Positions 3,133 to 57,105 of a DNA stretch of 64,000 bases are shown piece after piece. A program made the position numbers and the translations under genes. The stretch comes from an uncultured Gammaproteobacteria bacterium (lineage in GTDB: Bacteria > Patescibacteriota > Patescibacteriia > Magasanikbacterales > UBA922). Position 1 is the stretch's first letter. Each line of letters opens with the position of its first letter. The stretch covers positions 7,747 to 71,746 of the forward strand of contig CAZFTR010000005.1 in assembly GCA_964522405.1 (NCBI GenBank). The letters run 5' to 3'. The notes beneath the pieces were generated by a model. That model was not told where the DNA came from. It did no database searches and saw only the letters and a program-made list of their open reading frames with translations.

Positions 3133-3203
3133 TGGGCGTGTCGGTTAATGGTAAACCACGGGTCTCCAAAACCCGAACTGGGAGTTCGATTCTCTCCACG
3201 CCT
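3133..3203 (+). tRNA. trnW: tRNA-Trp (anticodon CCA)
   Basis: Cloverleaf: acceptor gggcgtg/cacgcct, D arm ggtt-aatggta-aacc, anticodon arm cgggt-cTCCAaa-acccg, T arm gggag-ttcgatt-ctctc; CCA not encoded. Confidence 0.8.
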
Positions 3204-3207
3204 GCTA

Positions 3208-4548: not shown

Positions 4549-5907
4549 ATGCCTGTCAAAAAATATAAAAATGCCTATGTTGTTACAGTGGACATGGGTT
4601 ATGGTCATCAGCGCGCAGCTTATCCGCTCAAGGATATTGCCAGATGCATGACTAGCGGGAAGTGTGGAGAAGATTTTATTATAAATGCCAATACTTACAA
4701 GGGGATTCCGGCAGGTGATGCCGGCAAATGGAAGAGTAGTAGAAGTGTTTATGAATTTATCTCAAGACTAAAAAAATTACCCTTGATCGGTGATCCTATT
4801 TTTAATGCAATGGATTATTTTCAGAGAATTCAGCCTTTTTATCCTAAACGTGATTTATCAAAACCCAGTTTGCAGCTAAAATCTATTTATAAAATGATTA
4901 GAAAAGGTTGGGGAAAGCATTTGATAGATAAATTAAATCAAAATCCTTTGCCGATCATAACCTCTTTTTTCATACCAGCTTTTTTTGCAGATGAGCATGG
5001 TTATGAAGGGGATATTTATGCAATATGTACTGATACAGATGTGAGTCGTGCCTGGGCCCCACTTAACCCAAACAGAAGTAAAATCAATTACCTGGTTCCG
5101 AATAAAAGAGTTCGTGAAAGGTTAAAATTATATGGAGTTAGAAAAGAAAAAATCTTTGTAACCGGTTTTCCGTTACCAAAAGAAAATATTGGTAAAGATC
5201 TAAATATTCTAAAACAAAGTATTGGTTGTAGAATTGGAAATCTAGATCCCAAGCAAAGATATCAGAAAAAATATTCACATACTTTGGATTATTATCTTGG
5301 AGAAAGATACTGCAAGCTTAAAGCAAAACATCCCCTGACTATTACTTTTGCAGTTGGTGGCGCTGGAGCGCAAAGAGATATTGGGGTTACAATTTTGAAG
5401 AGTTTGCATAAATATATTGATAAAGGTGAAATAGCCCTAAATTTGGTGGCTGGTTCAAGATTGGATGTTTATCAATATTATAGAAAAGCGGTAAAAGAGC
5501 TTCATTTCAAAAAGCAACATGGTGGAAATGTGAAAATAATTTATGATGCTCATAAATTGAGATATTTTGGTCAGTTTAATAAAATTCTTCTGACCACTGA
5601 TATACTTTGGACCAAACCAAGTGAATTGTCTTTTTATGCAGGTTTGGGAATTCCTATAATTATGGCTCCGACAATTGGTTCACAAGAAGAATTCAATCGA
5701 TCTTGGTTACACTCTATAAACGCTGGTTTTGAACAAGAAGATCCAGCATATACACATGAATGGTTATTTGATTGGCTTGATTCTGGTTGGCTTGCAGAGG
5801 CTGCAATAGAGGGATTTCTTGATGCGCCTAGAAATGGGGTTTATCATATAGAAGATATTGTCTTACGAGGTGTGCGAAGTGAGATTGAGGATATGCATCT
5901 GCTTTAA
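4549..5907 (+). CDS. GT28-like glycosyltransferase (MGDG synthase/MurG-like fold)
   Basis: N-terminal VDMGYGHQRAA (GxGH motif) and C-terminal FAVGGAGAQ nucleotide-sugar-binding half. Confidence 0.45.
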   Translation: MPVKKYKNAYVVTVDMGYGHQRAAYPLKDIARCMTSGKCGEDFIINANTYKGIPAGDAGKWKSSRSVYEFISRLKKLPLIGDPIFNAMDYFQRIQPFYPKRDLSKPSLQLKSIYKMIRKGWGKHLIDKLNQNPLPIITSFFIPAFFADEHGYEGDIYAICTDTDVSRAWAPLNPNRSKINYLVPNKRVRERLKLYGVRKEKIFVTGFPLPKENIGKDLNILKQSIGCRIGNLDPKQRYQKKYSHTLDYYLGERYCKLKAKHPLTITFAVGGAGAQRDIGVTILKSLHKYIDKGEIALNLVAGSRLDVYQYYRKAVKELHFKKQHGGNVKIIYDAHKLRYFGQFNKILLTTDILWTKPSELSFYAGLGIPIIMAPTIGSQEEFNRSWLHSINAGFEQEDPAYTHEWLFDWLDSGWLAEAAIEGFLDAPRNGVYHIEDIVLRGVRSEIEDMHLL

Positions 5908-5910
5908 TAG

Positions 5911-5990
5911 TTGACAGTTGACAATTATTAGTTGACAGTTATTGATTGAATAATAAACACTGTAAACTATAAACTGTAAACTGTCCACTA
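5911..5990. promoter_or_regulatory. heptamer-repeat array (TTGACAGTT x3 ... AACTGTAAACT x3), inverted halves
   Basis: ttgacagttgacaattattagttgacagtt ... actgtaaactataaactgtaaactgtcc; 7-bp periodicity of AACTGTA; lies just upstream of the 6001 gene. Confidence 0.5.
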
Positions 5991-6000
5991 TTTATTATCT

Positions 6001-6921
6001 ATGCTTTGGTTTATAATCGCACTTATTGGCTATCTGCTACTTGCAGTTGTTTTTGTTTTGGATAAATTAATCCTGACTAAGTCAGTTAGTAAGCCAGTTG
6101 TCTATACATTTTATTCAACCATCATGATGTTTGCTGTAATTGTTGCTTGGCCTTTTGGGGTTGAAATGCTTAATGGAATTGATTGGTTTTGGGCCTTGGT
6201 TTCCGGATTAGCATTTGGTTTTGCTCTCTGGACCATGTTTATAGCTGTAAAAAAAGGAGAAGCAAGCCATATAAATCCTTTCATGGGCGCTGTTATAACT
6301 ATTGCTACCTATATTACTTCCTATCTTTTTTTAGCTGAATCACTTTCACCAGTTCAGATTTGGGGGATTGTTATACTTGTTTTTGCTTCATTTTTATTAT
6401 CTTTTGAAAAAAGCAGAAATGGCAGTGGATTTCATATGGGATTTGTTTGGGCAATTTTGGCGGGTATATTTTTTGCCATTTCTCATGTTAGCGCAAAATA
6501 CCTATATGATATTTATCCTTTTTTGACCGGATTTGTGTGGACCAGATTTACTACTGGTTTTGTGGGATTGATTTGTCTTGCCTATCCAAGTGTTCGTAGA
6601 GTTTTCAAAAAAAAGCAGAAAACAGAAAAAAAACAAAAAAAAATTCCTTATGCCAAAAAACATGCTCTTGGTATTGTGGTTGCCAACAAAGCGATCGGAG
6701 TTGTGGCTGTGATTTTACTTCAGTATGCAATAGCGATAGGAAGTGTAACTCTGGTAAATGCCATGAGTGGCTTACAATATGTTCTGATGTTTTTGTTAAT
6801 TTTTATTTTAACAAAACTTGCGCCAAAAGTGTTTAAAGAGTATTTTACTAAGAGAGAGTTATTGATGCAGACAATTGCCATTATATTGGTTGTGATTGGT
6901 TCGGCCATGTTTGTCTTGTAA
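6001..6921 (+). CDS. multi-pass membrane protein, DMT/EamA-like permease
   Basis: 306 aa, about 10 TM helices in two halves. Confidence 0.4.
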   Translation: MLWFIIALIGYLLLAVVFVLDKLILTKSVSKPVVYTFYSTIMMFAVIVAWPFGVEMLNGIDWFWALVSGLAFGFALWTMFIAVKKGEASHINPFMGAVITIATYITSYLFLAESLSPVQIWGIVILVFASFLLSFEKSRNGSGFHMGFVWAILAGIFFAISHVSAKYLYDIYPFLTGFVWTRFTTGFVGLICLAYPSVRRVFKKKQKTEKKQKKIPYAKKHALGIVVANKAIGVVAVILLQYAIAIGSVTLVNAMSGLQYVLMFLLIFILTKLAPKVFKEYFTKRELLMQTIAIILVVIGSAMFVL

Positions 6922-6925
6922 GTGC

Positions 6926-7040
6926 ATTCGGATTTACGGATAATACTGATTATCCGGATGCTGAGTATGCTTGAATACATAAACATAAATTTAATTAAAG
7001 ATATCCGGATTATCAGGAATTATCTGTATATCAGGATACC
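6926..7040. repeat. Family A repeat, locus 1 (forward copy 6926-6960 plus partial inverted copy 7003-7040)
   Basis: attcggatttacggataatactgattatccggatg matches the 40-bp element seen at 28147, 28687 (inverted) and 54397. Confidence 0.6.
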
Positions 7041-11210: not shown

Positions 11211-11226
11211 AAAACCAAAAAATAAA

Positions 11227-11257
11227 AAAATCTCGTTATTTATAGCGAGATTTTTTA
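11227..11257 (+). terminator. intrinsic terminator after metK
   Basis: aaaaatctcg-(loop)-cgagatttttt. Confidence 0.8.
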
Positions 11258-11301
11258 TAATTAAATTTTTATATTATTTTCAAAAATACGCAATCAACGC
11301 A

Positions 11302-11416
11302 TATTGATTTGTACTATAAAGACTCATGAGACATTCCGCAGGCACATTGTTACCGCGGAGCAAGGTAACAATAGAGCCGAGGACGGCGAAGGAGGATTTA
11401 TAGTACAAATCAATAC
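11302..11416 (+). ncRNA. Family C structured element, copy 1 (conserved core in a 19-bp perfect inverted repeat)
   Basis: tattgatttgtactataaa ... actcatgagacattccgcag ... gagccgaggacggcgaaggagga ... tttatagtacaaatcaata. Confidence 0.5.
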
Positions 11417-11568
11417 TTTCCTATTGACAATAATATTAAAATTTAATTATTAGGAAGTGAGTGCCCGGGCAGCCCTCACGTCATGCCTGGCCCATAACCG
11501 TAGCCACTGTTGATTCCTCCCGACAGGGCGGACAGTGCGTACACGGTTTTGACCTCAGCAGGTCTTCC

Positions 11569-11961
11569 TCAAGTGGGGGAAGGAGCGTCCAAGATGGACA
11601 CGGCCCGTGCGATCAGATCACTCGGGCGAAAGGGTTTAGCAACGAAACCTTGCACCGAACCACTCGCCAGCAGGCCTTGCAGCTCGCCAGTTTGTTCGCC
11701 GGTGAAGCCGGACACGAGCAGAAGAGGGGTGTTGTTGCCAGCTTGCCGAAGCGCGCTTGCCACCTCTGTCCCACCCATGCACGGCATGATCACGTCGCAG
11801 AAAATCAGGTCAAACTCACCATCGAGTGCCTTTGTCAGGCCGTCAGCGCCGTTGCCGGCACATTCGACCTCAGCCTCACCGAAGTGGCGAGACAGCGCCC
11901 TCACAGCGATCAACCTGATCATTTCCTCATCGTCAATCACTAGAAACCGCTTTCTTCCCAT
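11569..11961 (-). CDS. standalone CheY-like receiver domain protein encoded in a GC-rich island
   Basis: MGRKRFLVIDDEEMIRL...DLIFCDVIMP...LLLVSGF...VAKPF; GC-rich codon usage unlike neighbouring genes. Confidence 0.55.
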   Translation of the reverse strand: MGRKRFLVIDDEEMIRLIAVRALSRHFGEAEVECAGNGADGLTKALDGEFDLIFCDVIMPCMGGTEVASALRQAGNNTPLLLVSGFTGEQTGELQGLLASGSVQGFVAKPFRPSDLIARAVSILDAPSPT

Positions 11962-11998
11962 AACACCTCTCTTTTGGAGAGGGCTACCCGGACAGGCC

Positions 11999-12027
11999 AT
12001 ATTATATCATCTATGTTGTGCTGTCAA
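11999..12027 (-). promoter_or_regulatory. sigma70-type promoter for the GC-island receiver gene
   Basis: Minus-strand ttgaca-17 nt-taatat, about 35 nt upstream of the ATG, with a cctctc-caaaa-gagagg leader hairpin. Confidence 0.5.
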
Positions 12028-12880: not shown

Positions 12881-14296
12881 ATGACAGAAAAACAGATAAT
12901 TAAGAAAATTTATACAGTTTCAAAGGAGCTTGACCAGGATATTTATATTGTTGGTGGTTTTGTGCGTGATGAATTATTGGGGATTAAGCACAAGAAAGAC
13001 TTGGATTTTGTAGTAGTCGGAAGTGGTCTTGAATTTGCCAAGAAATTTGATTTATCTCTAGAAGAAGAGGGGAGTCTGGTTGAGTTCCCAGATTTTGATA
13101 CAGCTCGTTATGTTTTAGATGATTTTGAAATAGAATTTGCAGGAGCTCGCATGGAATCGTATGATTCAGATTCCAGAAAACCGCATGTTAAGCCAGCTAC
13201 TCTTGAAATGGATTTATCAAGAAGAGATTTTACAGTTAATGCCATGGCAAGAAAAGTTATGTCATCTGGTTTGAGTAGTAAAATTCTTGATCCCTTTGAG
13301 GGCCAACAAGATTTAAAAAAGAAGATCATAAGAACGCCACTTGAGCCAAATGAAACATTTTCAGATGATCCACTACGTATGATGAGGGCAGCACGTTTTG
13401 CAGCGCAATTAGAATTTGAAATAGAAGAAAATACTTACAAAGCACTTGATAAAAATGCCAAAAGACTTAAAATAATTTCAGCAGAAAGAATTCAAGAAGA
13501 ATTATTTAAGATGCTTTCAACACTTGAGCCTTCAAAAGGTCTGTGGATTTTATATAAGACAGGATTGTTATCAGAATTTCTTCCGGAAGTGGTCGCACTT
13601 GGCGGTGTAGAAGAAGTTGCCGGTTATGCACATAAAAACAATTTATCCCACAGTTTCAAAGTTGTAGACAATATTGCCCAGATGAGTGATAAGTCAATTT
13701 TGCGTTTTGCCGGTTTGATGCATGATATTGGCAAGGCTGATACAAAGAAATTTGTAAAAGGGCGGGGCTGGACTTTTGATATGCATGATCATCTGGGAAA
13801 GAAAATGGTTAGGCAGATTGGCCGTCGATTGCGCATGAGTAAGGGTGATATAGAATATGTAGCTCACTTGGTTCGCTGGCATCTCTATCCGATTGCTCTT
13901 ATGGATGAGGGGGTAACTGATAGTCCTGTTCGCAGATTAATTGTAAATCTTCAGGAAGATTTGGATGATCTTCTGATTCTTTGTCGAGCAGATATTACCA
14001 CTGGAAATCAGAAGAAACTTAAGAGGAGATTAAAAAATTATGATTATCTGGAAAAAAGAATTGTAGAGGTTTTGGAAAAGGATAAGTTGCGAGCATTTCA
14101 GTCGCCGGTTCGCGGAGAGGAAATTATGAAGGAGTGCGGTTTAGGTCCAGGTCCAACAGTTGGAAAAATAAAAATAGCAATCGAAGAAGCTATTCTTGAT
14201 GGAATTATTGCCAATGAATATGAGCCGGCATTAGAATATTTTAAGAAAATAAAAGATGAATATATGAAAGATGTGCAGGATTGGGAAAAAGTTTAA
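12881..14296 (+). CDS. cca: CCA-adding tRNA nucleotidyltransferase (PolyA_pol head + HD domain)
   Basis: GGFVRDELLG...DLDF nucleotidyltransferase motif, RDFTVNAMA, HD-domain HDIGK. Confidence 0.8.
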   Translation: MTEKQIIKKIYTVSKELDQDIYIVGGFVRDELLGIKHKKDLDFVVVGSGLEFAKKFDLSLEEEGSLVEFPDFDTARYVLDDFEIEFAGARMESYDSDSRKPHVKPATLEMDLSRRDFTVNAMARKVMSSGLSSKILDPFEGQQDLKKKIIRTPLEPNETFSDDPLRMMRAARFAAQLEFEIEENTYKALDKNAKRLKIISAERIQEELFKMLSTLEPSKGLWILYKTGLLSEFLPEVVALGGVEEVAGYAHKNNLSHSFKVVDNIAQMSDKSILRFAGLMHDIGKADTKKFVKGRGWTFDMHDHLGKKMVRQIGRRLRMSKGDIEYVAHLVRWHLYPIALMDEGVTDSPVRRLIVNLQEDLDDLLILCRADITTGNQKKLKRRLKNYDYLEKRIVEVLEKDKLRAFQSPVRGEEIMKECGLGPGPTVGKIKIAIEEAILDGIIANEYEPALEYFKKIKDEYMKDVQDWEKV

Positions 14297-14315
14297 TTCT
14301 AAAATATAAATAAAA

Positions 14316-14345
14316 GCCAGCCCACACAAGGGCTGGTTTGATTTT
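14316..14345 (+). terminator. intrinsic terminator after cca
   Basis: gccagccc-acacaa-gggctggt then ttgatttt. Confidence 0.75.
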
Positions 14346-14349
14346 GAAG

Positions 14350-14770
14350 GGAGGGGTCGGCGCGGCAAGTTGGTCCTGAATTGCCCCTTTTATACGGGTG
14401 GTTGATGATACAACCGCGCCTTCCCCATAAATAGCCTTAGCTTGCGCCTTGGCCAAAGAACAGATGGATCGGGAACCTGGATTTGAACCAGGGACTTCAG
14501 GATTTGGAGTCCTGCACTCTACCGCTGAGTTATTCCCGAAAAAGAGAGGGCTGGGCTTGGGTCTGTCGCCAAGGCATATAGACCACAATCGGACTGGGAC
14601 GCCAGATCCAAGCTTGCCCCCATAAAAGGACAGAAACGCCATCTAGTCCACCGTGGACTAGGGGGGTGACAGCGAGTCTGTGCTGATCCGTGCTGGGCAC
14701 GGGCCCTGATGCGGGGATTTGCACCCCAATGCGCGACGAGTGCCGCGGTTTACTTTGCCTGATTTTGCGG
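14350..14770 (-). other. GC-rich structured island surrounding a tRNA-like gene
   Basis: By eye >55% GC. Perfect hairpins ctagtcca-cgg-tggactag and gggg-tgcaaat-cccc; long-range pair ggggaaggcgcgg/ccgcgccgacccc; no convincing ORF. Confidence 0.4.
14465..14539 (-). tRNA. tRNA-Trp-like (anticodon CCA), GC-rich, CCA encoded; a second and very different Trp tRNA
   Basis: Minus strand: TCGGGAA-TA-ACTC-AGCGGTA-GAGT-G-CAGGA-cTCCAaa-TCCTG-AAGTC-CCTGG-TTCAAAT-CCAGG-TTCCCGA-T-CCA. Confidence 0.6.
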
Positions 14771-16520: not shown

Positions 16521-16602
16521 ATAACAAATCTAAATTCAGCTCTGACACATGTCGGAGCTTTTTATTTAGCCGCAAAACTTGTTGACAATAAATTTTGAAT
16601 TA

Positions 16603-16780
16603 AATAGATATTAGCTTAAATTTAGCACATATATGGTTTGTGGATTAAAAACTCATGAGACAATCCGCAGCCCCCTTGCTGATGCTGAAAGCAGATCAGC
16701 AAGAGAGGCGAGGACGGCGAAGGAGGATTTAATCCACAAACCAATGTAGAATAGAAAAAATTTAAGCTAATATCTATTTG
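16603..16780 (+). ncRNA. Family C structured element, copy 2, nested in a 22-bp outer and 16-bp inner inverted repeat
   Basis: Outer aaatagatattagcttaaattt / aaatttaagctaatatctattt; inner tggtttgtggattaaa / tttaatccacaaacca; core actcatgagacaatccgcagccccc...gagaggcgaggacggcgaaggagga. Confidence 0.5.
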
Positions 16781-16790
16781 ATTCCATTTC

Positions 16791-16819
16791 TTGACAACAT
16801 TTTAAGGCGGTGGTATATT
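16791..16819 (+). promoter_or_regulatory. sigma70-type promoter of the hrcA operon
   Basis: TTGACA - 17 nt - TATATT, immediately upstream of CIRCE. Confidence 0.6.
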
Positions 16820-16844
16820 ATCACTCAAGTATCATGAGTGCTAA
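16818..16844 (+). promoter_or_regulatory. CIRCE operator (HrcA binding site)
   Basis: ttaTCACTC-aagtatcat-GAGTGctaa, a 9-bp spaced inverted repeat close to the TTAGCACTC-N9-GAGTGCTAA consensus; ends 4 nt before the hrcA ATG. Confidence 0.8.
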
Positions 16845-16847
16845 AAT

Positions 16848-17528
16848 ATGGAAACCAGAAAAGAACAATTACTCGGGCTGGTAGTAGAGGAATATATCAA
16901 AACAGCCCAGCCAATCGGATCAAAATTTTTAAGTACAGAAACAGAACTTAGAGTTAGTGCTGCAACAATTCGAAACGAAATGCGAGACCTAGAAGAAACC
17001 GGAATGCTAGCGCAACCACACACCTCAGCAGGAAGAATACCAACAGAAGCAGGGTACCGATACTATGTAGATAATATTTTAAAAATAGGAAAACTTACTA
17101 AGAAAAAACAGGAAAACTTACAAAAAATTGAAAAACTGGAATTAGATAAAAAAAGCAAATACAAAGAAATGGCAAAGTATATTTCAGAGGACTTGGGCGC
17201 TGCGGTTATCATTGCTTTTGGGAGTAATTCATTGTATTATACTGGGATTGGAAATTTATTTTCACAGCCAGAATTCCAAACTCATGCACATACAGTGGAT
17301 GTCTCAGCAGTATTTGACAAGTGTGAAGAAGTAATAGATCAGGTGTTTGAAGAAATAGAAAAGGGCTTACCAAAAGTTCTGGTTGGCAAAGAAAATCCAT
17401 TTGGTTCAGTCTGTAGTTTAGTGGGGGTCCGTTTTGGAAATCATAGTTTGTTGTCAGTTCTCGGACCCATGCGAATGAACTATGGTAGATCATTAGAATT
17501 TCTTGATTTTATCAAGGAAATCGATTAA
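16848..17528 (+). CDS. hrcA: heat-inducible transcription repressor HrcA (short)
   Basis: N-terminal wHTH QLLGLVVEEYIKTAQPIGSKFL...ISAATIRNEMRDLEETG; CIRCE upstream; grpE and dnaK downstream. Confidence 0.8.
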   Translation: METRKEQLLGLVVEEYIKTAQPIGSKFLSTETELRVSAATIRNEMRDLEETGMLAQPHTSAGRIPTEAGYRYYVDNILKIGKLTKKKQENLQKIEKLELDKKSKYKEMAKYISEDLGAAVIIAFGSNSLYYTGIGNLFSQPEFQTHAHTVDVSAVFDKCEEVIDQVFEEIEKGLPKVLVGKENPFGSVCSLVGVRFGNHSLLSVLGPMRMNYGRSLEFLDFIKEID

Positions 17529-17623
17529 TAGTTGATAGTTTGCAGTTTATTGACGATAATTAGTTGTAAACAAAATCAAATTTTAATCATAAACTAATAA
17601 CTATTAACTGTAAACTATCAACT
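17529..17623. promoter_or_regulatory. heptamer-repeat array with inverted arms agttgatagtttgcagtt / aactgtaaactatcaact
   Basis: 17/18 matching inverted repeat flanking a 58-bp AT spacer; second arm is tandem NAACTNN heptads ending 7 nt before the 17631 ATG. Confidence 0.5.
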
Positions 17624-17630
17624 AACAAAT

Positions 17631-18542
17631 ATGTCAGAAGAAAAAAGACCACGAGCAACAATGGGTGTTTATATTTTCAATAAAAAAGGTCAGATTTTAA
17701 TGGCAAAAAGCCCAAAATGGAGTGATCAGTATGTAGTTCCGGGTGGACATGTGGATTATGGTGAAAAAGTAGAAGATGCAGCAATTCGTGAAGTAAAAGA
17801 AGAAACAGGTCTTGATGTAAAAAATCCAGAATTGATTACAGTGATAAATATGATAGAGCCGGAGGATTTTACCAAATACACTGCCCATTTTGTTGGATTG
17901 CAATACCGGGTTGAGTTGATAGATGAAAATCAAAAGCCGGAATTGGATGAGCGTGAATTAACAGAATACAAATGGATTACACCAGAAGAAATTGTAGCAG
18001 ACGAAAACGTAGAACCATTTACAAGAAAAGTAGTACAAGATTTTCTAGTAAACAAAAAATCAAAGAAATTATTTAATAAAAAATGTAAAAACTGTGAGAA
18101 AAATGAAAACCAGTCACTAGAATACAAAGCTGGTTGGCAAAGAGCGCAAGCAGATTATAAAAATTTACAAAAAGAAATAGAAGAAAAAAGAAGCGAGCTA
18201 CTAAGATGGAGTAAAGAGCAAATACTTGGGGATTTTATCCCGGTATATGATAATTTCAAAAAAGCATTTGCAAGTAGAAAAGAGACAGATGATAAAGAAA
18301 TAGAAAATTGGGCAAAAGGAATTGAATACATAATGAAGCAATTTGGAGATATTCTAAAAGCTCACAATATAGAAGAGATTGAAACAGTGGGTCAGGAATT
18401 TAATCCAGAATTTCATGAAGCGATGAGTGAAGAAAATTCAGAAGAATTTGAAGAGGGAGTAATTATAAGAGAAATAGATGCAGGATATACAATGAAAGAA
18501 AAAGTTATAAAAGTCGCAAAAGTGGTAGTTTGTAAAAAATAA
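17631..18542 (+). CDS. grpE: NUDIX hydrolase - GrpE fusion protein
   Basis: N-terminal Nudix box GGHVDYGEKVEDAAIREVKEETGL; C-terminal GrpE region GWQRAQADYKNLQKE...ILGDFIPVYDNFKKA...FNPEFHEAM. Confidence 0.7.
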   Translation: MSEEKRPRATMGVYIFNKKGQILMAKSPKWSDQYVVPGGHVDYGEKVEDAAIREVKEETGLDVKNPELITVINMIEPEDFTKYTAHFVGLQYRVELIDENQKPELDERELTEYKWITPEEIVADENVEPFTRKVVQDFLVNKKSKKLFNKKCKNCEKNENQSLEYKAGWQRAQADYKNLQKEIEEKRSELLRWSKEQILGDFIPVYDNFKKAFASRKETDDKEIENWAKGIEYIMKQFGDILKAHNIEEIETVGQEFNPEFHEAMSEENSEEFEEGVIIREIDAGYTMKEKVIKVAKVVVCKK

Positions 18543-19468: not shown

Positions 19469-19763
19469 GGGGATAATTAAGAAATTATTTATTTCAGAGT
19501 TATGTTTAAGTTTAATTTAATAGAAAAATTGAAAATTATTTTTCATTTTAGAAAAAAAAGCAAAACAAAAGGAGGTAACGGTGGGGATATATTTATCGCA
19601 GGTGGAGAATTGAAAGGTGGCGGAACAATAAGTGCTGATGGGAGCAGGGGTGAAGTGGGTGGTGAAGGTGGTTCTGTAACTATAATTACAGATAAAAATA
19701 ATTTTGAAGGACAAATTTCAGCTCAGGGTGGAGGAAATTTGTAAGATAATAATATATGTAATT

Positions 19764-19820
19764 AAACTGTAAAATATTCACTATTAACTAATAACTATTA
19801 TCTATTAACTATTCACTATT
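19764..19820. promoter_or_regulatory. six tandem heptamers ttcacta-ttaacta-ataacta-ttatcta-ttaacta-ttcacta (mirror-symmetric) directly upstream of dnaK
   Basis: Exact 7-bp register 19777-19818; array ends 10 nt before the dnaK ATG. Confidence 0.55.
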
Positions 19821-19828
19821 AAAAAAAT

Positions 19829-21781
19829 ATGGGAAAAATATTAGGAATCGATCTAGGAACAACAAATTCATGTATGGCAGTGACAGAAGGTGGTCAGCCA
19901 AAAGTACTTGAGAACAAAGAGGGAAACAGAACAACACCTTCAATGGTTGCAGTTTCAAAAACAGGAGAACGACTTGCGGGACAACTTGCCAAACGTCAAT
20001 CAGTTACCAATCCAGCAAATACACTATATTCGATCAAACGTTTGATCGGACGACGTTTCAATGATCCGGAAGTGCAGGAAGTACAAAAGCATGTGCCTTT
20101 TGAGATTATTCCAGATGGAGATAGATTGAAAATCAAAATGGGGGACAAGGAACATACACCGCAAGAAGTTGCAGCAATGGTTTTACAAAAACTAAAAGCA
20201 GATGCAGAAGAAAAAACCGGTGAAACTATAACAGAGGCTGTTATTACAGTTCCAGCATATTTTGATGATGCACAACGCCAAGCAACAAAAGACGCAGGAG
20301 AAATTGCAGGTCTAAAAGTTTCAAGAATTATCAATGAGCCAACAGCAGCAGCATTTGCCTATGGTTTTGATAAGAAAAATGACCAGAAGATTGCAGTGTA
20401 CGATCTTGGTGGTGGAACTTTTGATATTTCAATTCTAGAGATTTCACATGATGCAGAAGACGACAGTTCAACTGTAGAAGTAATGGCTACAAATGGTGAC
20501 ACCCATCTAGGCGGAGATGATTTTGATCAGGCAATTATCAGATGGATAATCGATGAATTTAAACGCACTGAGGGTGTAGATTTGGGTTCAGACCCATTAT
20601 CACTCCAAAGAGTAAAAGATGCGGCTGAAAAGGCCAAAATAGAGCTCTCAAGCACTCCAGAAACAGAAATCAACGAACCATTTATCACAGCAGGAGCAGA
20701 AGGACCAAAACATTTGAATTTGAAGATGTCTCGAGCAAAATTAGAAGAGCTCGTGGGAGATTTAGTAGAGAGAAGTTTAATCCCAGTAAAGAAATCACTA
20801 GATGATGCTGGAGTTGCAAAAACAGATATAAATGAAGTAATTCTAGTAGGTGGAATGACCAGAATGCCATTAGTTCAGAAAAAAGTAGAAGAATTTTTTG
20901 GTAAAAAACCAAACTCATCAGTAAACCCAGATGAGGTAGTAGCAATGGGTGCCGCAATCCAAGCAGGACAGCTCCAAGGAGATCTTGGAAAAGAAATTTT
21001 GCTTCTTGATGTAACACCACTTTCATTTGGAATAGAGACACTTGGATCAGTTAGTACAAAAGTAATTGATAGTAATACAACAATTCCAACAACAAAATCA
21101 CAAGTATTTTCAACAGCAGCAGATAATCAGCCAAGTGTAGAAATACATGTGCTTCAAGGAGAGCGTGAAATGGCAACGGATAATAAAACATTGGGGAGAT
21201 TTCATCTTGATGGAATTCCACCAGCACCGCGTGGAGTGCCACAGATCGAAGTAAAATTTGATATTGATGCAAATGGAATCCTAAGTGTTTCAGCAAAAGA
21301 TAAGGGAACAGGAAAAGAACAATCAATTCGAATTGAAGCAAGTTCAGGACTAAGTGATGAAGAAATCGAAAAAATGAAAAAAGATGCAGAAGCGCATGCA
21401 GAGGAAGATAAGAAAAAACGTGAAATGATTGATATCAAAAATACAGCAGATACAATGGTTTACACAACAGAAAAAATGATGAAAGATGTTGAAGAAAAGA
21501 AAATAGAAATCACAGAAGAAGAAAAGAAAAAAGTAGAAGATGCATTAGTAAAAGTAAAAGAACTAAAAGAGGGTGAAGATATGGAAGCTTTGAAAACTGC
21601 ATCAGATGAACTTTCAACATCAGCCCAAGCAATCGGAATGAAAATGTATGAGCAAGAACAGGCTGCGCAAAAAGCAACTGGTGGAACAGAAGGCCAAACT
21701 GCAGGAGAAGCCGGTGCAGAAACTGACGAGAAAAAAGAAGATGGGCCGATTGAGGGTGAAGTTGTTGAGGATAGTAAATAG
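19829..21781 (+). CDS. dnaK: molecular chaperone DnaK (Hsp70)
   Basis: [28 protein letters not shown] signatures; 650 aa. Confidence 0.95.
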
Positions 21782-21850
21782 TTGACAGTTAACAGGTAAC
21801 AGTTCACAACTGGAAACTACAAACTGTAACCTGATAACTGTAATAAATAT
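21782..21850. promoter_or_regulatory. heptamer array gttgaca-gttaaca-ggtaaca-gttcaca / spacer / aaactgt-aacctga-taactgt
   Basis: GTTNACA x4, then the reverse-complement heptads; ends 2 nt before the 21853 ATG. Confidence 0.5.
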
Positions 21851-22500: not shown

Positions 22501-22580
22501 GTCCGAGCGTAGCGAGAGCGAATGAAGTCGAGGGATCCCTAGATTACTTTTTTCTTTCAGAAAACTTCACTCGGGATGAC
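22482..22580. repeat. Family B MITE-like element, copy 1
   Basis: gtcatcccgagcgg ... gaagtcgagggatccct ... tttcagaaaac ... cactcgggatgac: terminal IR GTCATCCCGAG/CTCGGGATGAC plus internal AGGGATCCCT palindrome. Confidence 0.55.
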
Positions 22581-22607: not shown

Positions 22608-23072
22608 ATGAAAAAACTTCCAATGTTCACATCCACGCTATTATTTTTGATAGTTTTTGGATTAGCATTTTGGTATTTTAATTCGCAAGAAGTAGAAGAG
22701 GTAGAAGAAGGTATCGTAGAACAAGAAGAATTGGAAAAACCAGTCTTAATTGGAGATGAAATTGGAGTATCGATTAGTTTTAAATTAGTTTCAAGAGAAA
22801 ATTTAATAGGATCATGGCAATGGACACAGGGTCCGGCATCATGGCAAAGTATAATTCTTGATCAAGATGGAAATTACTATACACATTTGCATGATCGGCC
22901 ATTTGATAGTGGTACTTGGAATTTGGAATCAGGAATACTGTCTCTGGATTCAGAAGTTGGAGAAGAAATGGATTTATCGTTTAAAGATTTGAAATTATCA
23001 AAAGAAGATAATTTGAATATGATGCGAGTGATTGATGACGCGACTGTTAGCGTTTGGGAGAGAATTAAATAA
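22608..23072 (+). CDS. hypothetical membrane-anchored protein (start moved from ORF-track 22497, whose N-terminus lies inside the repeat)
   Basis: MKKLPMFTSTLLFLIVFGLAFWYF signal anchor; in-frame ATG at 22608. Confidence 0.4.
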   Translation: MKKLPMFTSTLLFLIVFGLAFWYFNSQEVEEVEEGIVEQEELEKPVLIGDEIGVSISFKLVSRENLIGSWQWTQGPASWQSIILDQDGNYYTHLHDRPFDSGTWNLESGILSLDSEVGEEMDLSFKDLKLSKEDNLNMMRVIDDATVSVWERIK

Positions 23073-23112
23073 TTTTAACTATCAACTATAAGCTGTCAAC
23101 TATAATTAACCT
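23073..23112. promoter_or_regulatory. heptamer array ttaacta-tcaacta-taagctg-tcaacta upstream of dnaJ
   Basis: 7-bp register of (T/A)CAACTA, ending 9 nt before the dnaJ ATG. Confidence 0.45.
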
Positions 23113-24201
23113 ATGTCCAAAGACTACTACAAAACACTCGGCGTCACTAAAAATGCTTCACAAGAAGAAGTAAAAAAAGCTTTTCGTAAACTTGCCCATA
23201 AATATCATCCGGATAAAAAGGGTGGTGATGAGGCAAAGTTCAAAGAAATAAATGAAGCTTTTCAAGTTGTGGGTGATTCTACCAAGAGAAAACAATATGA
23301 TCAGTTTGGCGCAGACTTCCAGCAACAAGGCGGTTTTGGTGGTGGAATGAATTGGGAAGATTTCATGCGAGCAACTCGTGGTGGTGGAGGTGGAATGAAT
23401 TTTGGAGGGGTTGATCTTGGGGATATTTTTGGTGAGATGTTTGGTGGTGGAGGTGGTCGAGGAAGAGGTCAAACTCGTGGAAATGATGTGCAAGTAGATA
23501 TTGAATTAGATTTCAAAGACGCAGCTTTTGGAATAGAGCGTGAAATTAATTTAAAGAAAAACAATCCATGCGCAGTCTGTTCTGGAACTGGAGCTGAGCC
23601 TGGAAGTAAAATGGAAAATTGCGAAACTTGTGGAGGTCAGGGGCAGGTTCGAAGAATCCAACAAACTCTTCTTGGTGCTATGCAATCAGTAAGTACATGT
23701 CACAGTTGTCATGGACAGGGAAAATTTCCAGAAAAACAATGTAAGCATTGTGGAGGAGATGGACTTGAGAGAAGTAATTCAAATTATAAAATAAAAATTC
23801 CTGCTGGAATTGATCATGGCGGTCTTATTAAGTTATCCGGAAAAGGAGAAAGTGCAGGTGTTGGAAGTGTTCCTGGAGATCTTTATGTTCGTGTTCTTGT
23901 GAAATCACTTGAAGGATTTGAAAGAAGAGGTTTTGATGTTCATACTGAGGTTAATATCTCATACCCGCAAGCAGTTTTGGGTGATAAGATTGAAATAGAA
24001 ACTCTTGATGGAAATAAAAAATTGGTAATTCCGTCAGGTACACAGTCACATCAGGAAATCAAATTAAAAAGTTTTGGAATCACTCGATTAAATCGTGGTG
24101 GACGAGGGGATCAGTATGTAAAAGTTGTAGTAACGGTTCCGAAAAAACCGGGTAGGAAAGCGAAGAAGTTGATCGAAGAATTAGGAAATGAGCTAAAATA
24201 G
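23113..24201 (+). CDS. dnaJ: molecular chaperone DnaJ
   Basis: J domain KDYYKTLGV...HPDK; Gly-rich linker; four CxxCxGxG zinc-finger repeats. Confidence 0.9.
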   Translation: MSKDYYKTLGVTKNASQEEVKKAFRKLAHKYHPDKKGGDEAKFKEINEAFQVVGDSTKRKQYDQFGADFQQQGGFGGGMNWEDFMRATRGGGGGMNFGGVDLGDIFGEMFGGGGGRGRGQTRGNDVQVDIELDFKDAAFGIEREINLKKNNPCAVCSGTGAEPGSKMENCETCGGQGQVRRIQQTLLGAMQSVSTCHSCHGQGKFPEKQCKHCGGDGLERSNSNYKIKIPAGIDHGGLIKLSGKGESAGVGSVPGDLYVRVLVKSLEGFERRGFDVHTEVNISYPQAVLGDKIEIETLDGNKKLVIPSGTQSHQEIKLKSFGITRLNRGGRGDQYVKVVVTVPKKPGRKAKKLIEELGNELK

Positions 24202-26032: not shown

Positions 26033-26186
26033 GTCATCCCGAGCGAAGTTTTCTGAAAGAAAAACGAAGTCGAGGGATCCCTGTCTATGTAGTATTGCGA
26101 ACGGATTAAGAGTGTTGCGCTATACTGTATAGACAGGGATCTCTCCACTACATCTCTTACTTCGTAGAGATTGCGGTCGAGATGAC
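26033..26186. repeat. Family B MITE-like element, copy 2 (longest, extra internal hairpin)
   Basis: gtcatcccgagcgaag ... gaagtcgagggatccctgtctat ... atagacagggatc ... cggtcgagatgac. Confidence 0.55.
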
Positions 26187-27966: not shown

Positions 27967-28030
27967 AAATAGTAATAGTTGACAGTTTACAGTTAATAGT
28001 TTTGAGTGGTGAACGGTGATTGGTTTGGAT
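27967..28030. promoter_or_regulatory. heptamer array directly upstream of recJ (minus strand reads aaaacta-ttaactg-taaactg-tcaacta)
   Basis: Plus strand tagttgacagtttacagttaatagtttt; array abuts the recJ start codon. Confidence 0.5.
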
Positions 28031-28146
28031 TTGTTGATTTTAGTAAAATGCTGGGAGGACTGTGAAGAAGATCATTCCGAGAATTGCGACTACGCTGATT
28101 ACAAGCCAGAGTGTTTTGAATTTTTTGGAGTTGTACATAGATTTAA

Positions 28147-28726
28147 GGGGTATTCGGATTTACGGATAATCCTGATAATCCGGATGTTTAATTAGAATTG
28201 TTTTTCAAGTCTTGAACCAACTTTAGCTTTTTATTATAATTATAAAATTTTTCTATCATTTAATTTGTCTCTTTATCAATTTTGTTTTCTAGCTCTTTGA
28301 TTGATTTTTTCATTGCACTTGTTATTTTAAAAAAGTGGAATTTCATAGTAGTGTCATCTGTTCTCTTTTTTTTATCACCCATCATTTCATCGAAATTATC
28401 ACCAACTTCTTTTGGAAAAGTAACCTTGAAATCAGCAATCATTTCGCAAGAGTAACTATTTTTTGCCATCGAAGAGCTTAGTTCTTCGATGACTTTTTTG
28501 TATTTATTTTCTAAATCGCGTTTCCTTTTGTAAAGCCTCTCAATTTTGATGGTTTTTTTCCATTTTTTATATTCTACATTTAAAGTAATAATGGGTGTTA
28601 TGCTTGCAATTAGGCCACCAATTAAAACTCCTAATAATGTCTCTGACATATATAAATTAAATTTTATTCTATTTAACCCCAGCAATCATCCGGATTATCA
28701 GGATTATCCGTAAATCCGAATACCCC
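28147..28726. mobile_element. MITE-like cassette: 40-bp perfect terminal inverted repeats (Family A) flanking one small gene
   Basis: ggggtattcggatttacggataatcctgataatccggatg at 28147-28186 and its exact reverse complement at 28687-28726. Confidence 0.55.
28260..28649 (-). CDS. hypothetical small protein inside the inverted-repeat cassette (N-terminal TM helix, charged coiled-coil tail)
   Basis: ATG at 28649 gives MSETLLGVLIGGLIASITPIITL...; the ORF-track TTG start at 28685 runs into the repeat. Confidence 0.4.
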   Translation of the reverse strand: MSETLLGVLIGGLIASITPIITLNVEYKKWKKTIKIERLYKRKRDLENKYKKVIEELSSSMAKNSYSCEMIADFKVTFPKEVGDNFDEMMGDKKKRTDDTTMKFHFFKITSAMKKSIKELENKIDKETN

Positions 28727-33953: not shown

Positions 33954-34092
33954 TTTTTGGTATTCAATTTGTGTAAGTATATATTATAAAATGAAACGTT
34001 AGGCGATCAATTTAATTTGATGGTTAAATTATTTCCATAGAGCCCGGTTGAGTTTTATAATATATACTTACACAAATTGAACTGGCTATATA

Positions 34093-37254: not shown

Positions 37255-37289
37255 AAAACAAAAAACCGCTTTTTGCGGATCGTATAATT

Positions 37290-37880
37290 TGGGGTAGGGT
37301 ACGGCCAGCGCGCTACCCGAGTCCGTTGCCTCTCTCTAGGCTCCGGTTTGGACTCGGGCAGCGCGCGGCCGCTAGTTGAAGCTCCAGAAGGAGCGGTGGG
37401 ATGCGCTATGGCACCGTGTTTACTTCGTGACAGTTCTTCGCACAAAGTCGACACAGGTTGCCGCAGACGCGACACTGGGTGGGGATCGTCGCGACCCCCT
37501 CTGGATCTCCAGGCCATTCGATTCGGCCTGGGAGCAGCGCGCTTAACCGGACTTCTCCCGGAATGATGGGCGCGACTGCTGTCTCATCACAGTCTTAAAG
37601 AGCAACACGAACCGTTGGCTTTGCAAGAGTCCTCAGTTCTTGCAATAACCTCACCTGGGCTAATCAGCCCGCACTTCCACCGCCTCGCGGTGGTTCTGGC
37701 AACCCACTTTGGGGTAGGCAACGCATGACGTCCACCGGGATTGCTGATCGTATTCGTTCACGACCTGCGGGTCAAAATTCCGGGTGGCGACCGTTGCTTC
37801 GAGGTTTTGAATATAGCATAAAAAAAGCCTTTTGTCAACCCTGTCGCTCGCGAACGACAGGGTCAAGGCCCTAAGATTGA
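37290..37880. other. about 600-bp GC-rich, highly structured, ORF-poor island (candidate structured ncRNA or foreign DNA)
   Basis: Starts ggggtagggtacggcc; 20-bp imperfect hairpin ggccagcgcgctacccgagtcc / ggactcgggcagcgcgcggcc; gctcc-agaa-ggagc; ccctgtcg-ctcgcgaa-cgacaggg; minus-strand terminator-like ccgcaaaaagcggtttttgttttt at 37262-37285. Confidence 0.35.
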
Positions 37881-37941: not shown

Positions 37942-37972
37942 ATCCAGCTCTTGTTAAAAGCTGGATTTTGGT
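37942..37972. terminator. hairpin with flanking A and T runs (bidirectional terminator-like)
   Basis: aaaatccagct-cttgttaaa-agctggatttt. Confidence 0.5.
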
Positions 37973-37974
37973 TT

Positions 37975-38110: not shown

Positions 38111-38222
38111 GTTCCAGAGTAGAAGAAGAGGATCCTAAATAATATATCATTTTTTTGCTGTATTTACAATATTTTGCTAGTATTAAGTGGTGATATAAGT
38201 TTTTCTAAATTAGCAAAAATTT

Positions 38223-56977: not shown

Positions 56978-57105
56978 AATTGTCTGTGATTTGTGTTATG
57001 AAGACAGCTTCGCCGTCCTCGCCTCTCTTGTTACTCTGCTTTCAGCAGTAGCAAGGGGGCTGCGGATTGTTTCATCTGTCTTCATAACACAAATCACAGA
57101 CAATT
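56978..57105 (-). ncRNA. Family C structured element, copy 3 (minus orientation), in a 30-bp perfect inverted repeat
   Basis: aattgtctgtgatttgtgttatgaagacag / ctgtcttcataacacaaatcacagacaatt; minus-strand core acaatccgcagcccccttgctactgctgaaagcagagtaacaagagaggcgaggacggcgaag. Confidence 0.5.

What the first reader, a model, noticed from the sequence alone, without database searches (positions are those of the whole stretch)
11302..11416. Three-copy structured element with a conserved GC-rich core inside long inverted repeats that differ by compensatory changes
The same element occurs at 11302-11416 (+), 16603-16780 (+) and 56978-57105 (-).

All copies share the core CA(A/T)TCCGCAG(G/C)C...[internal hairpin]...AGAG(C/G)CGAGGACGGCGAAG. 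The enclosing inverted repeat differs in sequence between copies yet is perfect within each copy: 19 bp tattgatttgtactataaa, 16 bp tggtttgtggattaaa, and 30 bp aattgtctgtgatttgtgttatgaagacag. The internal hairpin also changes by compensatory substitution (attgttacc/ggtaacaat in copy 1, cttgctgat/atcagcaag in copies 2 and 3).

Preserved pairing with changed sequence is what a functional RNA secondary structure produces. Each copy lies in the 5' region of a gene on the same strand (uppP, hrcA, dnaB). I could not match it to any RNA family I know.
Basis: seen in the sequence. Interest (0 to 1): 0.75.

Follow-up and report, generated by a model that had tools for sequence, protein, structure and literature searches.

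The report
Foldback repeat family in CPR genome
Three diverged copies of a non-coding hairpin-shaped DNA repeat (long perfect AT-rich arms around a GC-rich core) sit between housekeeping genes of a Magasanikbacteria (CPR) genome. They look like inserted foldback repeats rather than conserved regulatory RNA leaders, although an RNA role is not excluded.

Summary
Three copies exist (11302-11415 +, 16634-16743 +, 56978-57105 -). They share an invariant core and have perfect 19/16/30-bp inverted repeats. 14 of 38 pairs carry double (compensated) changes.

The RNA-leader interpretation is only partly supported:
- All 110 paired cells are Watson-Crick, with no G·U.
- Both strands fold about equally well.
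- Two copies are wrapped in a second 27-bp inverted repeat of unrelated sequence.
- The elements lie outside the predicted transcription units.
- They are absent from the same intergenic sites in four syntenic relatives.
- No Rfam family matches, and no copy was found in about 1 Mb of other CPR DNA or in an exact-pattern metagenome scan.

The same architecture (locus-specific, near-perfect AT-rich arms plus a GC-rich core) recurs with other cores in other Patescibacteria contigs. One pair there has 98%-identical cores and unrelated arms.

Best reading (about 0.5): a lineage-restricted foldback/MITE-like interspersed repeat whose arm complementarity is kept at the DNA level. A structured small RNA remains a live rival (about 0.25). 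Interest is moderate.

The parts
11302..11415 (+). Copy 1, whole homologous element (114 bp)
   Evidence: 120.2 bits.
11302..11320 (.). Copy 1 left arm TATTGATTTGTACTATAAA. It pairs perfectly with 11397-11415.
11397..11415 (.). Copy 1 right arm TTTATAGTACAAATCAATA
11321..11396 (+). Copy 1 core (55% GC). Contents: ATGAGACATTCCGCAGGC; variable hairpin ATTGTTACC/GGTAACAAT (11346-11354/11364-11372); AGAGCCGAGGACGGCGAAG.
11257..11283 (.). Copy 1 outer inverted repeat, left arm (27 nt, 93% complementary to 11424-11450). Not homologous to copy 2's outer repeat.
   Evidence: I5.
11424..11450 (.). Copy 1 outer inverted repeat, right arm. Begins with TTGACA.
16634..16743 (+). Copy 2, whole homologous element (110 bp)
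   Evidence: 132.2 bits.
16634..16649 (.). Copy 2 left arm TGGTTTGTGGATTAAA. It pairs perfectly with 16728-16743.
16728..16743 (.). Copy 2 right arm TTTAATCCACAAACCA
16650..16727 (+). Copy 2 core (56% GC). Variable hairpin CTTGCTGAT/ATCAGCAAG (16675-16683/16695-16703). Invariant 14-mer at 16709-16722.
16597..16623 (.). Copy 2 outer inverted repeat, left arm (27 nt, 96% complementary to 16758-16784)
   Evidence: I4.
16758..16784 (.). Copy 2 outer inverted repeat, right arm. It ends 7 nt before the hrcA -35 box.
56978..57105 (-). Copy 3, whole element (128 bp). The part homologous to copies 1 and 2 is 56987-57096.
   Evidence: 128.6 bits. Identical in independent Logan contigs L129, L130 and L213.
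57076..57105 (.). Copy 3 arm (5' arm on the minus strand), AATTGTCTGTGATTTGTGTTATGAAGACAG. The outer 9 bp have no counterpart in copies 1 and 2.
   Evidence: I1: 30 nt, 100%.
56978..57007 (.). Copy 3 arm (3' arm on the minus strand)
57008..57075 (-). Copy 3 core (54% GC). Hairpin CTTGCTACT/AGTAACAAG with one C·A mismatch, which is G·U on the opposite strand. Invariant 14-mer at 57008-57021.

Best explanation
The three loci are old, diverged copies (74-79% identical) of a lineage-restricted, non-coding foldback ('hairpin') interspersed repeat.

Anatomy: a 68-78-nt GC-rich asymmetric core is closed by a long, AT-rich, strictly Watson-Crick inverted repeat.

Shown:
- The element is extra DNA in intergenic spacers compared with related genomes. 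It is not a conserved leader.
- Complementarity of the arms is actively maintained.
- The palindrome extends into sequence that is not shared between copies.
- Elements of the same build, with other cores and locus-specific arms, are scattered through other Patescibacteria contigs.

Inferred:
- The element spreads, or once spread, as a small non-autonomous mobile or selfish unit.
- Its arms are kept perfect at the DNA level. The likely route is intramolecular replication template switching on a hairpin-prone sequence, which copies one arm from the other and can lengthen the palindrome outward. Alternatively, or in addition, the folded single-stranded form is what gets recognised and copied.
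- The invariant purine-rich core blocks (TCCGCAG; CGAGGACGGCGAAG) would be the recognition module.
- If read-through transcription reaches a copy, it would form a very stable RNA hairpin (-49 to -67 kcal/mol on the element strand; -44 to -76 across both strands). This hairpin could act as a barrier or an RNase III substrate. I regard that as a consequence, not the reason the element exists.
For: 1. Dispersed copies with an invariant core.

2. Sites are empty in relatives.
- The Band7-hrcA spacer is 327 nt here. It is 111 nt and 134 nt in two syntenic relatives that keep the same terminator, TTGACA-17-TATATT promoter and CIRCE operator.
- The difference is about the 188 bp of copy 2 including its outer repeat.
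- The dnaB-upstream and metK-downstream sites also lack the element.
- The model finds nothing in those four loci with filters off.

3. DNA-like pairing.
- 110 of 111 cells are Watson-Crick, with 0 G·U and 0 one-sided changes.
- 7-12 of the 17-22 changed paired columns per pairwise comparison are transversions.
- No strand folds consistently better.

4. At 21-26% divergence, neutral arms should carry several mismatches each. They carry none. So complementarity is being maintained.

5. Nested 27-bp outer inverted repeats of unrelated sequence surround copies 1 and 2, and copy 3 has 9 extra arm bp. These cannot be inherited from a common element.

6. The elements sit between terminators and promoters.

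7. The same architecture occurs elsewhere.
- About 13 elements were found in 1.13 Mb of CPR loci.
- They are patchy: 4 each in L173 and L187.
- In L173, two copies have 98% identical 62-nt cores but unrelated 19-28-bp perfect arms.
- Most abut stop codons of housekeeping genes.

8. Template switching is a documented cause of arm homogenisation (PMC8604942; PMC7202029). Lineage-restricted parasitic hairpin repeats are known, e.g. BOX, RUP and SPRITE (PMC3049150) and MITEs (PMC3184786).
Against: - No target-site duplication is consistent across the three copies.
- No transposase or recombinase was seen in the annotated parts of the window.
- Only three copies are known. The rest of the genome could not be searched.
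- The conserved part is the interior and the variable part is the arms. This is the reverse of a classical DDE-transposase MITE.
- The GC-rich core (54-57% against a 36% genome) has not decayed despite about 25% divergence, and the middle pair of a 3-bp core helix has swapped (GGC/GCC to GCC/GGC). Both hint at selection on a folded single strand, which could be RNA.
- Core conservation is only suggestive statistically: 28 of 73 paired columns vary against 9 of 35 unpaired (p = 0.28).
- Mobility itself is not demonstrated. No polymorphic site was found in the samples where a copy was covered: copy 3 in SRR8146440 and SRR8146441, and copy 1 in SRR8146440 plus its left half in SRR31802803.
Confidence: 0.5

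Rival explanations
1. A family of small structured RNA genes. Each copy is transcribed from its own weak promoter. The GC-rich core is the functional RNA or protein-binding module. The long closing helix is free to vary provided it pairs, for example as a processing or stabilising stem.
For: - Strong covariation: 14 of 38 pairs, 0 of 500 shuffles, including a G-C to C-G swap inside the core.
- Invariant unpaired blocks, and a GC-rich island in an AT-rich genome.
- A perfect TATAAT lies 6 nt before copy 3.
- TTGACA-17-TAGATA lies before copy 2.
- No coding potential. The 25-aa ORFs of copies 1 and 2 are in different frames across the conserved 3' block, and copy 3 stops after 14 codons.
Against: - No G·U in 111 cells, and no strand preference in folding.
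- Perfect 19-30-bp stems are atypical for stable small RNAs.
- The promoter scan calls neither candidate promoter, and there is no terminator after any copy.
- Outer inverted repeats lie partly outside any such transcript.
- Absent from syntenic relatives and from about 1 Mb of CPR DNA.
- No Rfam match.
Confidence: 0.25
2. Host-serving transcriptional insulators or fail-safe (bidirectional) terminators. The very stable hairpin stops or marks read-through RNA between neighbouring transcription units.
For: - Copy 1 lies between convergent metK and the REC gene. Copy 2 lies between the Band7 terminator and the hrcA promoter.
- Elements of the same architecture in other CPR contigs mostly abut stop codons, often between convergent genes. 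Several have A-rich left arms and T-rich right arms.
- REP elements have been proposed as 3'-UTR regulators (bioRxiv 10.64898/2026.03.23.713779).
Against: - No U-tract follows copies 1-3, and the terminator scan does not call them.
- metK and Band7 already have canonical terminators.
- Copy 3 lies between divergent genes, where nothing needs terminating.
- A structural role does not explain the invariant core sequence.
Confidence: 0.12
3. A site for a structure-specific DNA enzyme, analogous to integron attC, IS200/IS605 ends, or REP with its RAYT transposase. The enzyme would recognise the folded single strand through the asymmetric core.
For: - Structure is conserved while the stem sequence varies.
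- Unpaired bases are conserved and asymmetric.
- Copy 1 sits directly 3' of an apparently foreign GC-rich single gene, which loosely resembles a cassette followed by an attC site.
Against: - No R''/R' boxes (RYYYAAC/GTTRRRY) at the ends, and no GTAG.
- Copies 2 and 3 flank syntenic housekeeping genes, not cassettes.
- No integrase, Y1 or HUH gene was seen in the annotated parts of the window.
Confidence: 0.07
4. A cis-regulatory 5' leader (riboswitch or attenuator) of uppP, hrcA and dnaB.
For: Copies 2 and 3 are co-oriented with, and upstream of, hrcA and dnaB.
Against: - Copy 1 is separated from uppP by an opposite-strand gene.
- Copy 2 is upstream of the conserved hrcA promoter. hrcA already has its CIRCE operator.
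- Orthologous leaders in four relatives lack the element.
- The three genes are functionally unrelated.
Confidence: 0.03

Closest known systems
Bacterial MITE-type hairpin repeats (Correia/NEMIS of Neisseria, ERIC, RUP), as reviewed in PMC3184786
   Same: - Size of 100-200 bp and non-coding.
- Intergenic, in several dispersed copies.
- The whole unit folds into one long stem-loop.
- Lineage-restricted.
- Often next to promoters or terminators.
   Different: - No consistent target-site duplication.
- Arms vary between copies while the interior is the conserved part.
- No cognate transposase is known.
- The palindrome continues into non-homologous flanks.
Pneumococcal BOX/RUP/SPRITE repeats (PMC3049150)
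   Same: - Small interspersed repeats with extensive secondary structure.
- Nearly absent from related species, and interpreted as parasitic elements with slow turnover.
- SPRITE is terminator-like, and the related CPR elements here abut stop codons.
   Different: - No sequence relation.
- Copies 1-3 have no U-tract.
- Copy number here is unknown (3 in 64 kb).
- Strictly perfect long arms.
REP/REPIN elements mobilised by RAYT
   Same: Extragenic palindromes that form hairpins, frequently at 3' ends or between convergent genes. A single-strand hairpin is the recognised form.
   Different: - REP arms are conserved across copies and carry a GTAG-type tetranucleotide.
- Neither that tetranucleotide nor a RAYT gene was found here.
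Integron attC sites
   Same: Structure is conserved and sequence variable. The recognised form is a folded single DNA strand with asymmetric unpaired bases.
   Different: - In attC the conserved boxes are at the ends and the centre varies. Here it is the opposite.
- No R boxes, no integrase and no cassette array.
Quasipalindrome template-switch homogenisation (PMC8604942, PMC7202029)
   Same: It explains 'compensatory' double changes, including transversions and clustered changes, strictly Watson-Crick arms, and lengthening of palindromes, all without selection on RNA.
   Different: It is a mutational process, not an element family. It does not explain the conserved GC-rich core or the dispersal of copies.

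Membership tests
Any Rfam 15 RNA family | Score at or above the family's gathering threshold | tested here: not met
   The whole window gives only 2 tRNAs. E-value mode on copies 1 and 2 gives only noise far below the gathering scores. The look-alike elements in other loci also have no match.
MITE | Short, non-coding, multiple dispersed copies | tested here: met
   Three copies of 110-128 bp. There is no conserved ORF.
MITE | Terminal inverted repeats conserved between copies (transposase binding sites) | tested here: inconclusive
   Only TG(A/G)TTTGT...ACAAA(T/C)CA is shared. 8 of 20 arm pairs differ between copies, and the arm ends differ in length.
MITE | Target-site duplication flanking the repeats | tested here: not met
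   The flanks are ...ACGCA / CTTTC......ATATA / ATGTA... and ...TAACC / AATCC..., with no consistent direct repeat. A TTGACAA direct repeat flanks only copy 2's outer unit.
MITE | A cognate autonomous IS/transposase with matching ends | tested here: inconclusive
   None is present among the annotated genes of window regions 8-17 kb and 46-64 kb plus about 6.6 kb of downstream contig, or among 10 further ORFs.
REP/REPIN | Conserved 20-40-nt imperfect palindrome with a GTAG-type 5' tetranucleotide, and a RAYT gene in the genome | tested here: not met
   There is no GTAG-type signature at the arm feet, and the arms are not conserved. The RAYT gene could not be tested genome-wide.
Integron attC | R''(RYYYAAC)...R'(GTTRRRY) boxes at the ends, and a location 3' of cassettes next to intI | tested here: not met
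   The ends read TATTGATTTG / TGGTTTG / AATTGTCTG. The neighbours are syntenic housekeeping genes.
Intrinsic terminator | GC-rich stem immediately followed by a U-tract | tested here: not met
   The terminator scan calls the metK and Band7 terminators, but reports no site at the 3' border of any of the three elements.
5'-leader cis-regulatory RNA (riboswitch/attenuator) | Lies between promoter and start codon, and is conserved upstream of orthologues | tested here: not met
   Copy 2 lies upstream of the conserved hrcA promoter. Copy 1 is separated from uppP by an opposite-strand gene. The element is absent upstream of hrcA and dnaB in four relatives.
Structured functional RNA (generic) | Covarying base pairs | tested here: met
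   14 of 38 pairs changed on both sides; 0 of 500 shuffles reach this; slid controls give 0-1. Only 3 sequences are available.
Structured functional RNA (generic) | RNA-specific signature: G·U tolerance and strand asymmetry | tested here: not met
   There are 0 G·U in 111 cells. The one C·A mismatch would be G·U on the other strand. Minimum free energy favours the + strand in copy 1 and the - strand in copies 2 and 3.
Structured functional RNA (generic) | Transcribed with defined ends | not testable with these tools
   No expression data were available. Promoter-like matches are weak and inconsistent.

The most novel reading that the evidence does not exclude
The three copies belong to an undescribed class of Patescibacteria foldback elements. 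In this class a conserved GC-rich structured core moves between intergenic sites and acquires locus-specific, perfectly complementary arms. The arms could arise by inverted duplication of the target or by outward palindrome growth. That would imply a new insertion or copying mechanism, or a new structured-RNA class whose closing helix is built from local sequence.

Supporting hints:
- L173 copies with 98%-identical cores and unrelated perfect arms.
- Arms that overlap stop codons of housekeeping genes.
- The 8-mer GACGGCGA is found inside 6 such cores, against 0.1 expected.
Probability: 0.2. Interest if true: 0.8.

Novelty: new variant of a known kind. Interest (0 to 1): 0.45.

Why it matters
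If it is simply a hairpin repeat, it is a useful caution. Perfect 'compensatory' changes in long inverted repeats can arise at the DNA level, and they mimic RNA covariation in genome scans.

It also shows that even tiny, streamlined CPR genomes carry several families of intergenic palindromic repeats that reshape promoter and terminator regions.

If the class-level pattern holds (conserved core, arms made from local sequence), it would point to an unknown way of copying small elements. It could also point to unknown structured RNAs in a phylum radiation with almost no experimental genetics.

Tried and rejected
**Searches that found no further copies**
- Genome-contig scan with TCCGCAG-N(20-50)-CGAGGACGGCGAAG. 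None is real; for example, the Nanosyncoccus hit is a sigma-factor coding sequence.
- The same pattern in viral contigs gave 6 chance hits.
- A stricter pattern in metagenomes gave 0 hits.
- blastn against phages and plasmids found nothing.
- I concatenated six-frame pseudo-peptides of the element and searched them against 5.8 billion proteins, hoping to catch spurious gene calls over other copies. Nothing scored.
- Walking along the source genome added only 6.6 kb and no new copy.

**Ideas tested and dropped**
- Small ORF. Rejected: the frames differ between copies because of a 2-nt indel, and copy 3 is truncated.
- The 29-bp inverted repeat at 33963-34081 and the L216 element as family members. 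Local alignment is no better than shuffles, so I treat them as the same architecture only.
- GACGGCGA as a superfamily signature. It is enriched, but it sits in different structural contexts. Unresolved.
- GC-rich islands as the source of the core. They share no similarity with the element or with each other.

**Ideas checked only by eye**
- DnaA boxes, parS/dif, K-turn, attC boxes, TA target duplications and TIGR arrays. None fits all three copies.
- Contig breaks at the hairpin apex in Logan assemblies. I read these as assembly behaviour at palindromes, not as evidence about copy number.

Full report

Yes. Reading the three loci and aligning them shows one homologous unit at 11302-11415 (+), 16634-16743 (+) and 56978-57105 (-).
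- The 14-mer CGAGGACGGCGAAG is present exactly three times, against 0.05 expected by chance.
- GAGACAWTCCGCAGSC matches the same three places.
- A covariance model built from the copies scores them 120-132 bits. With filters off, the next best hit in the window scores 21.9 bits.
- Each copy is closed by a perfect inverted repeat of 19, 16 or 30 bp.
- Perfect repeats of at least 16 bp around 30-120-nt loops occur 4 times in the window, against 0.01 in shuffles.
- Folding z-scores are -9.4 to -11.6 on the element strand.
- On the three-sequence alignment, 110 of 111 pair cells are Watson-Crick and 14 of 38 pairs changed on both sides. No shuffle (0 of 500) and no slid register comes close.

- Copy 3's inner hairpin differs from copy 2's by two compensated pairs and one C·A mismatch.
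- The wider span given for copy 2 is a second, outer inverted repeat (16597-16623/16758-16784). Copy 1 has one as well (11257-11283/11424-11450).
- Copy 1 is not in the uppP leader.
- Copy 2 lies upstream of the hrcA promoter, not in its leader.

**2. Organism and gene context**

DnaB and HrcA homologues place the window in Candidatus Magasanikbacteria (CPR/Patescibacteria). The closest relatives have about 83% DnaB identity and about 60% HrcA identity.

Copy 1:
- It lies after the canonical metK terminator (11225-11256).
- It lies before a 58%-GC island that encodes a stand-alone receiver-domain protein on the minus strand (11569-12000; Pfam PF00072). That gene has its own promoter at 12027-11999.
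- It therefore sits between convergent genes.

Copy 2:
- It lies after the Band7 terminator (16538-16559).
- It lies before the hrcA promoter at 16791-16819 (11 of 12 matches, extended -10) and a CIRCE-like operator.

Copy 3:
- It lies between divergent dnaB and a glycosyltransferase gene, 20 nt from the latter's -35 box.
- A lone TATAAT lies 6 nt upstream of copy 3 on its own strand, but the scan finds no promoter there.

**3. Is it conserved?**

No, as far as I could sample.
- Two relatives syntenic around dnaB (L211, L212) lack it.
- Two relatives syntenic from metK through hrcA and dnaK (L215, L216) lack it.
- In both of the latter, the Band7-hrcA spacer keeps the terminator, the TTGACA-17-TATATT promoter and the CIRCE operator, but is 111 or 134 nt long instead of 327 nt. 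The difference is about the 188 bp of copy 2 with its outer repeat.
- In L215, metK is followed by a 48-nt spacer and other genes.
- About 1.0 Mb of other CPR dnaB loci give no hit.
- An exact-pattern scan of JGI metagenomes gives none.
- Phage and plasmid collections give none.
- The same organism carries identical sequence in independent Logan assemblies: copy 3 in SRR8146440 and SRR8146441, copy 1 in SRR8146440 and its left half in SRR31802803, from three sequencing runs in all. The elements, and the GC-rich island next to copy 1, are therefore not assembly artefacts.

**4. RNA or DNA?**

The compensation is real but does not look RNA-specific.
- There is not one G·U pair and not one one-sided change.
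- The only mismatch (C·A in copy 3) would be a wobble on the opposite strand.
- Many double changes are swaps that need transversions (A-T to T-A, C-G to G-C). These cannot pass through a wobble intermediate.
- Both strands fold with similar energies, and neither is consistently favoured.
- At 21-26% pairwise divergence, a neutrally drifting 20-bp stem should have accumulated several mismatches per copy (my estimate). There are none. So complementarity is maintained, but in a way that treats both strands alike.
- The palindrome does not stop at the homologous unit. Copies 1 and 2 are enclosed by further 27-nt repeats of unrelated sequence, and copy 3 has 9 extra arm base pairs. Such locus-specific symmetry cannot have been inherited from a common ancestor element. 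It has to be generated in place.
- Replication template switching between the arms of imperfect inverted repeats is a documented process. It homogenises arms and produces multi-nucleotide 'compensated' changes (PMC8604942; PMC7202029).
- Against a purely neutral DNA view: the core is 54-57% GC in a 36% GC genome; it contains invariant blocks; and one 3-bp core helix has swapped its middle pair.
- With three sequences, the excess conservation of unpaired columns is not significant (9 of 35 against 28 of 73 variable, p = 0.28).

**5. The same architecture elsewhere**

I scanned the 1.13 Mb of fetched CPR loci for near-perfect inverted repeats around 35-115-nt loops. This recovered about 13 further elements with AT-rich arms of 16-35 bp and GC-rich cores of 49-97 nt.
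- They are concentrated in a few contigs, with four each in L173 and L187.
- In L173, two copies share a 62-nt core at 98% identity, yet their perfect 19-28-bp arms are unrelated beyond a short TTTT-GGACA foot. A related core occurs in L187, which is a different genome.
- L189 and L187 share another core.
- Most of these elements abut or overlap the stop codons of housekeeping genes (L27/L9, L21, DnaB, an arginase-family protein, CysS, RecR, HrcA), often between convergent genes.
- None matches Rfam.
- Their arms carry 17 mismatches in 427 pairs.
- The 8-mer GACGGCGA of the window's core occurs 46 times in this 1.13 Mb. Six of these lie inside such cores, against 0.1 expected, and three of the six are elements from other genomes. 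However, the motif sits in a different predicted structural context there, so I do not claim homology.
- Two other hairpins, window 33963-34081 and L216 4294-4415, share only the architecture.

**6. Interpretation**

The best-supported reading is that copies 1-3 are members of a lineage-restricted foldback interspersed repeat. It is MITE-like in size, lack of coding capacity, dispersal and hairpin shape. It is atypical in three ways: it lacks target-site duplications, its conserved part is the interior, and its arms are partly locus-specific.

Shown:
- The copies and their structure.
- The maintained Watson-Crick complementarity.
- The locus-specific outer symmetry.
- Absence from syntenic relatives.
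- Position outside the predicted transcription units.
- The existence of sister architectures.

Inferred:
- Mobility.
- DNA-level arm homogenisation by template switching.
- The core as a recognition module.

The main rival is a small structured RNA family (about 0.25). The covariation and the GC-rich core keep it alive. The following weigh against it:
- No G·U pairs and no strand asymmetry.
- No credible promoter and terminator pair.
- No conservation in relatives.

A host-serving insulator or terminator role (about 0.12) fits the 3'-end location of the wider class better than it fits these three copies. An attC/REP-like enzyme site (about 0.07) and a 5'-leader riboswitch (about 0.03) fail their defining features.

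**7. Novelty and score**

Small palindromic interspersed repeats are well known in bacteria (PMC3184786, PMC3049150). I found no description of this family, or of this 'conserved core with local arms' pattern, in CPR genomes, but the literature check was shallow. I rate it a new variant of a known kind with moderate interest (0.45). There is about a 0.2 chance that it reflects a genuinely new copying mechanism or RNA class.

Noticed in passing
window 11458-12000: A 58%-GC island in a 36%-GC genome. It carries a stand-alone CheY-like receiver gene (minus strand, 11569-12000, PF00072) with its own promoter. It is present in an independent Logan contig and absent from the syntenic relative L215, so it looks like a recent horizontal acquisition.
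   Followed up: partly
window 37285-37815 and 37970-38130: Two GC-rich (58%) stretches with no ORF of 90 aa or more and strong local hairpins, between terminator-like sites. There is no Rfam match even in E-value mode. Possibly unknown structured RNAs or foreign DNA.
   Followed up: partly
window 41278-41673 (-), 40337-40618 (+), 14241-14642 (-): Further small GC-rich islands (48-61% GC) with ORFs of 93-133 aa that have no Pfam match. They share no sequence similarity with one another or with the element.
   Followed up: partly
window ~16827-16853; L215 9555-9585; L216 3601-3628: A CIRCE-like operator, TTATCACTC-N9-GAGTGCTAA, overlaps the hrcA start. It is conserved together with the TTGACA-17-TATATT promoter in two relatives.
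   Followed up: partly
window 5904-5998, 17525-17632, 19758-19823, 21770-21848, 23070-23121, 27967-28009, 48739-48838, 53341-53422: Arrays of 7-nt units (AACTGTA / TAGTTGA and variants) arranged as AT-rich inverted clusters in at least 8 intergenic sites. For example, one forms a 96-nt hairpin between hrcA and the next gene. This is a second, unrelated palindromic repeat family.
   Followed up: no
window 6918-6959, 28144-28185, 54394-54435: A 42-nt motif, AAGGGGTATTCGGATTTACGGATAATCCTGATAATCCGGAT, present three times (83-100% identical) and built from CGGAT/ATCCG units. Function unknown.
   Followed up: no
window 33963-34081: A perfect 29-bp inverted repeat with a 61-nt AT-rich loop. It fills the corA-murJ spacer and ends 10 nt from the murJ start. 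It has the same architecture as the finding but no significant sequence similarity.
   Followed up: partly
window 26068-26149 and 22521-22550: A 32-bp (84%) inverted repeat and a palindrome that share GTCGAGGGATCCCT.
   Followed up: no
L173 2477-2622, 3150-3262, 10480-10601; L187 4959-5075, 11361-11476: The 'X' family. The core is predicted to fold as a three-way junction: GGUC-GAGCGACGGCGA-GACC plus an AT-rich hairpin. Two copies have 98% identical cores and unrelated perfect arms. It is found in two different CPR genomes and sits at the stop codons of L27/L9, L21 and DnaB.
   Followed up: partly
L216 4294-4415: In a relative (GCA_964554925.1), a 22-bp-armed, GC-rich-core hairpin overlaps the last five codons and the stop of hrcA. 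Its right arm is an inverted copy of that coding end. This hints that arms can be made from local sequence.
   Followed up: partly
window 16582-16588 and 16791-16797: TTGACAA occurs on both sides of copy 2's outer unit. Relatives have a single TTGACA there. It could be a duplicated target, a promoter duplication or coincidence.
   Followed up: no
window 3134-3205 (+) and 14465-14539 (-): Two tRNA-Trp(CCA) genes lie within 11 kb of each other.
   Followed up: no
L121/L122 start, L217 end, L222 end (window ~16693-16705 and ~11363): Independent Logan contigs end at the apex of copies 2 and 1. This is probably assembly or coverage failure at strong nested palindromes.
   Followed up: partly
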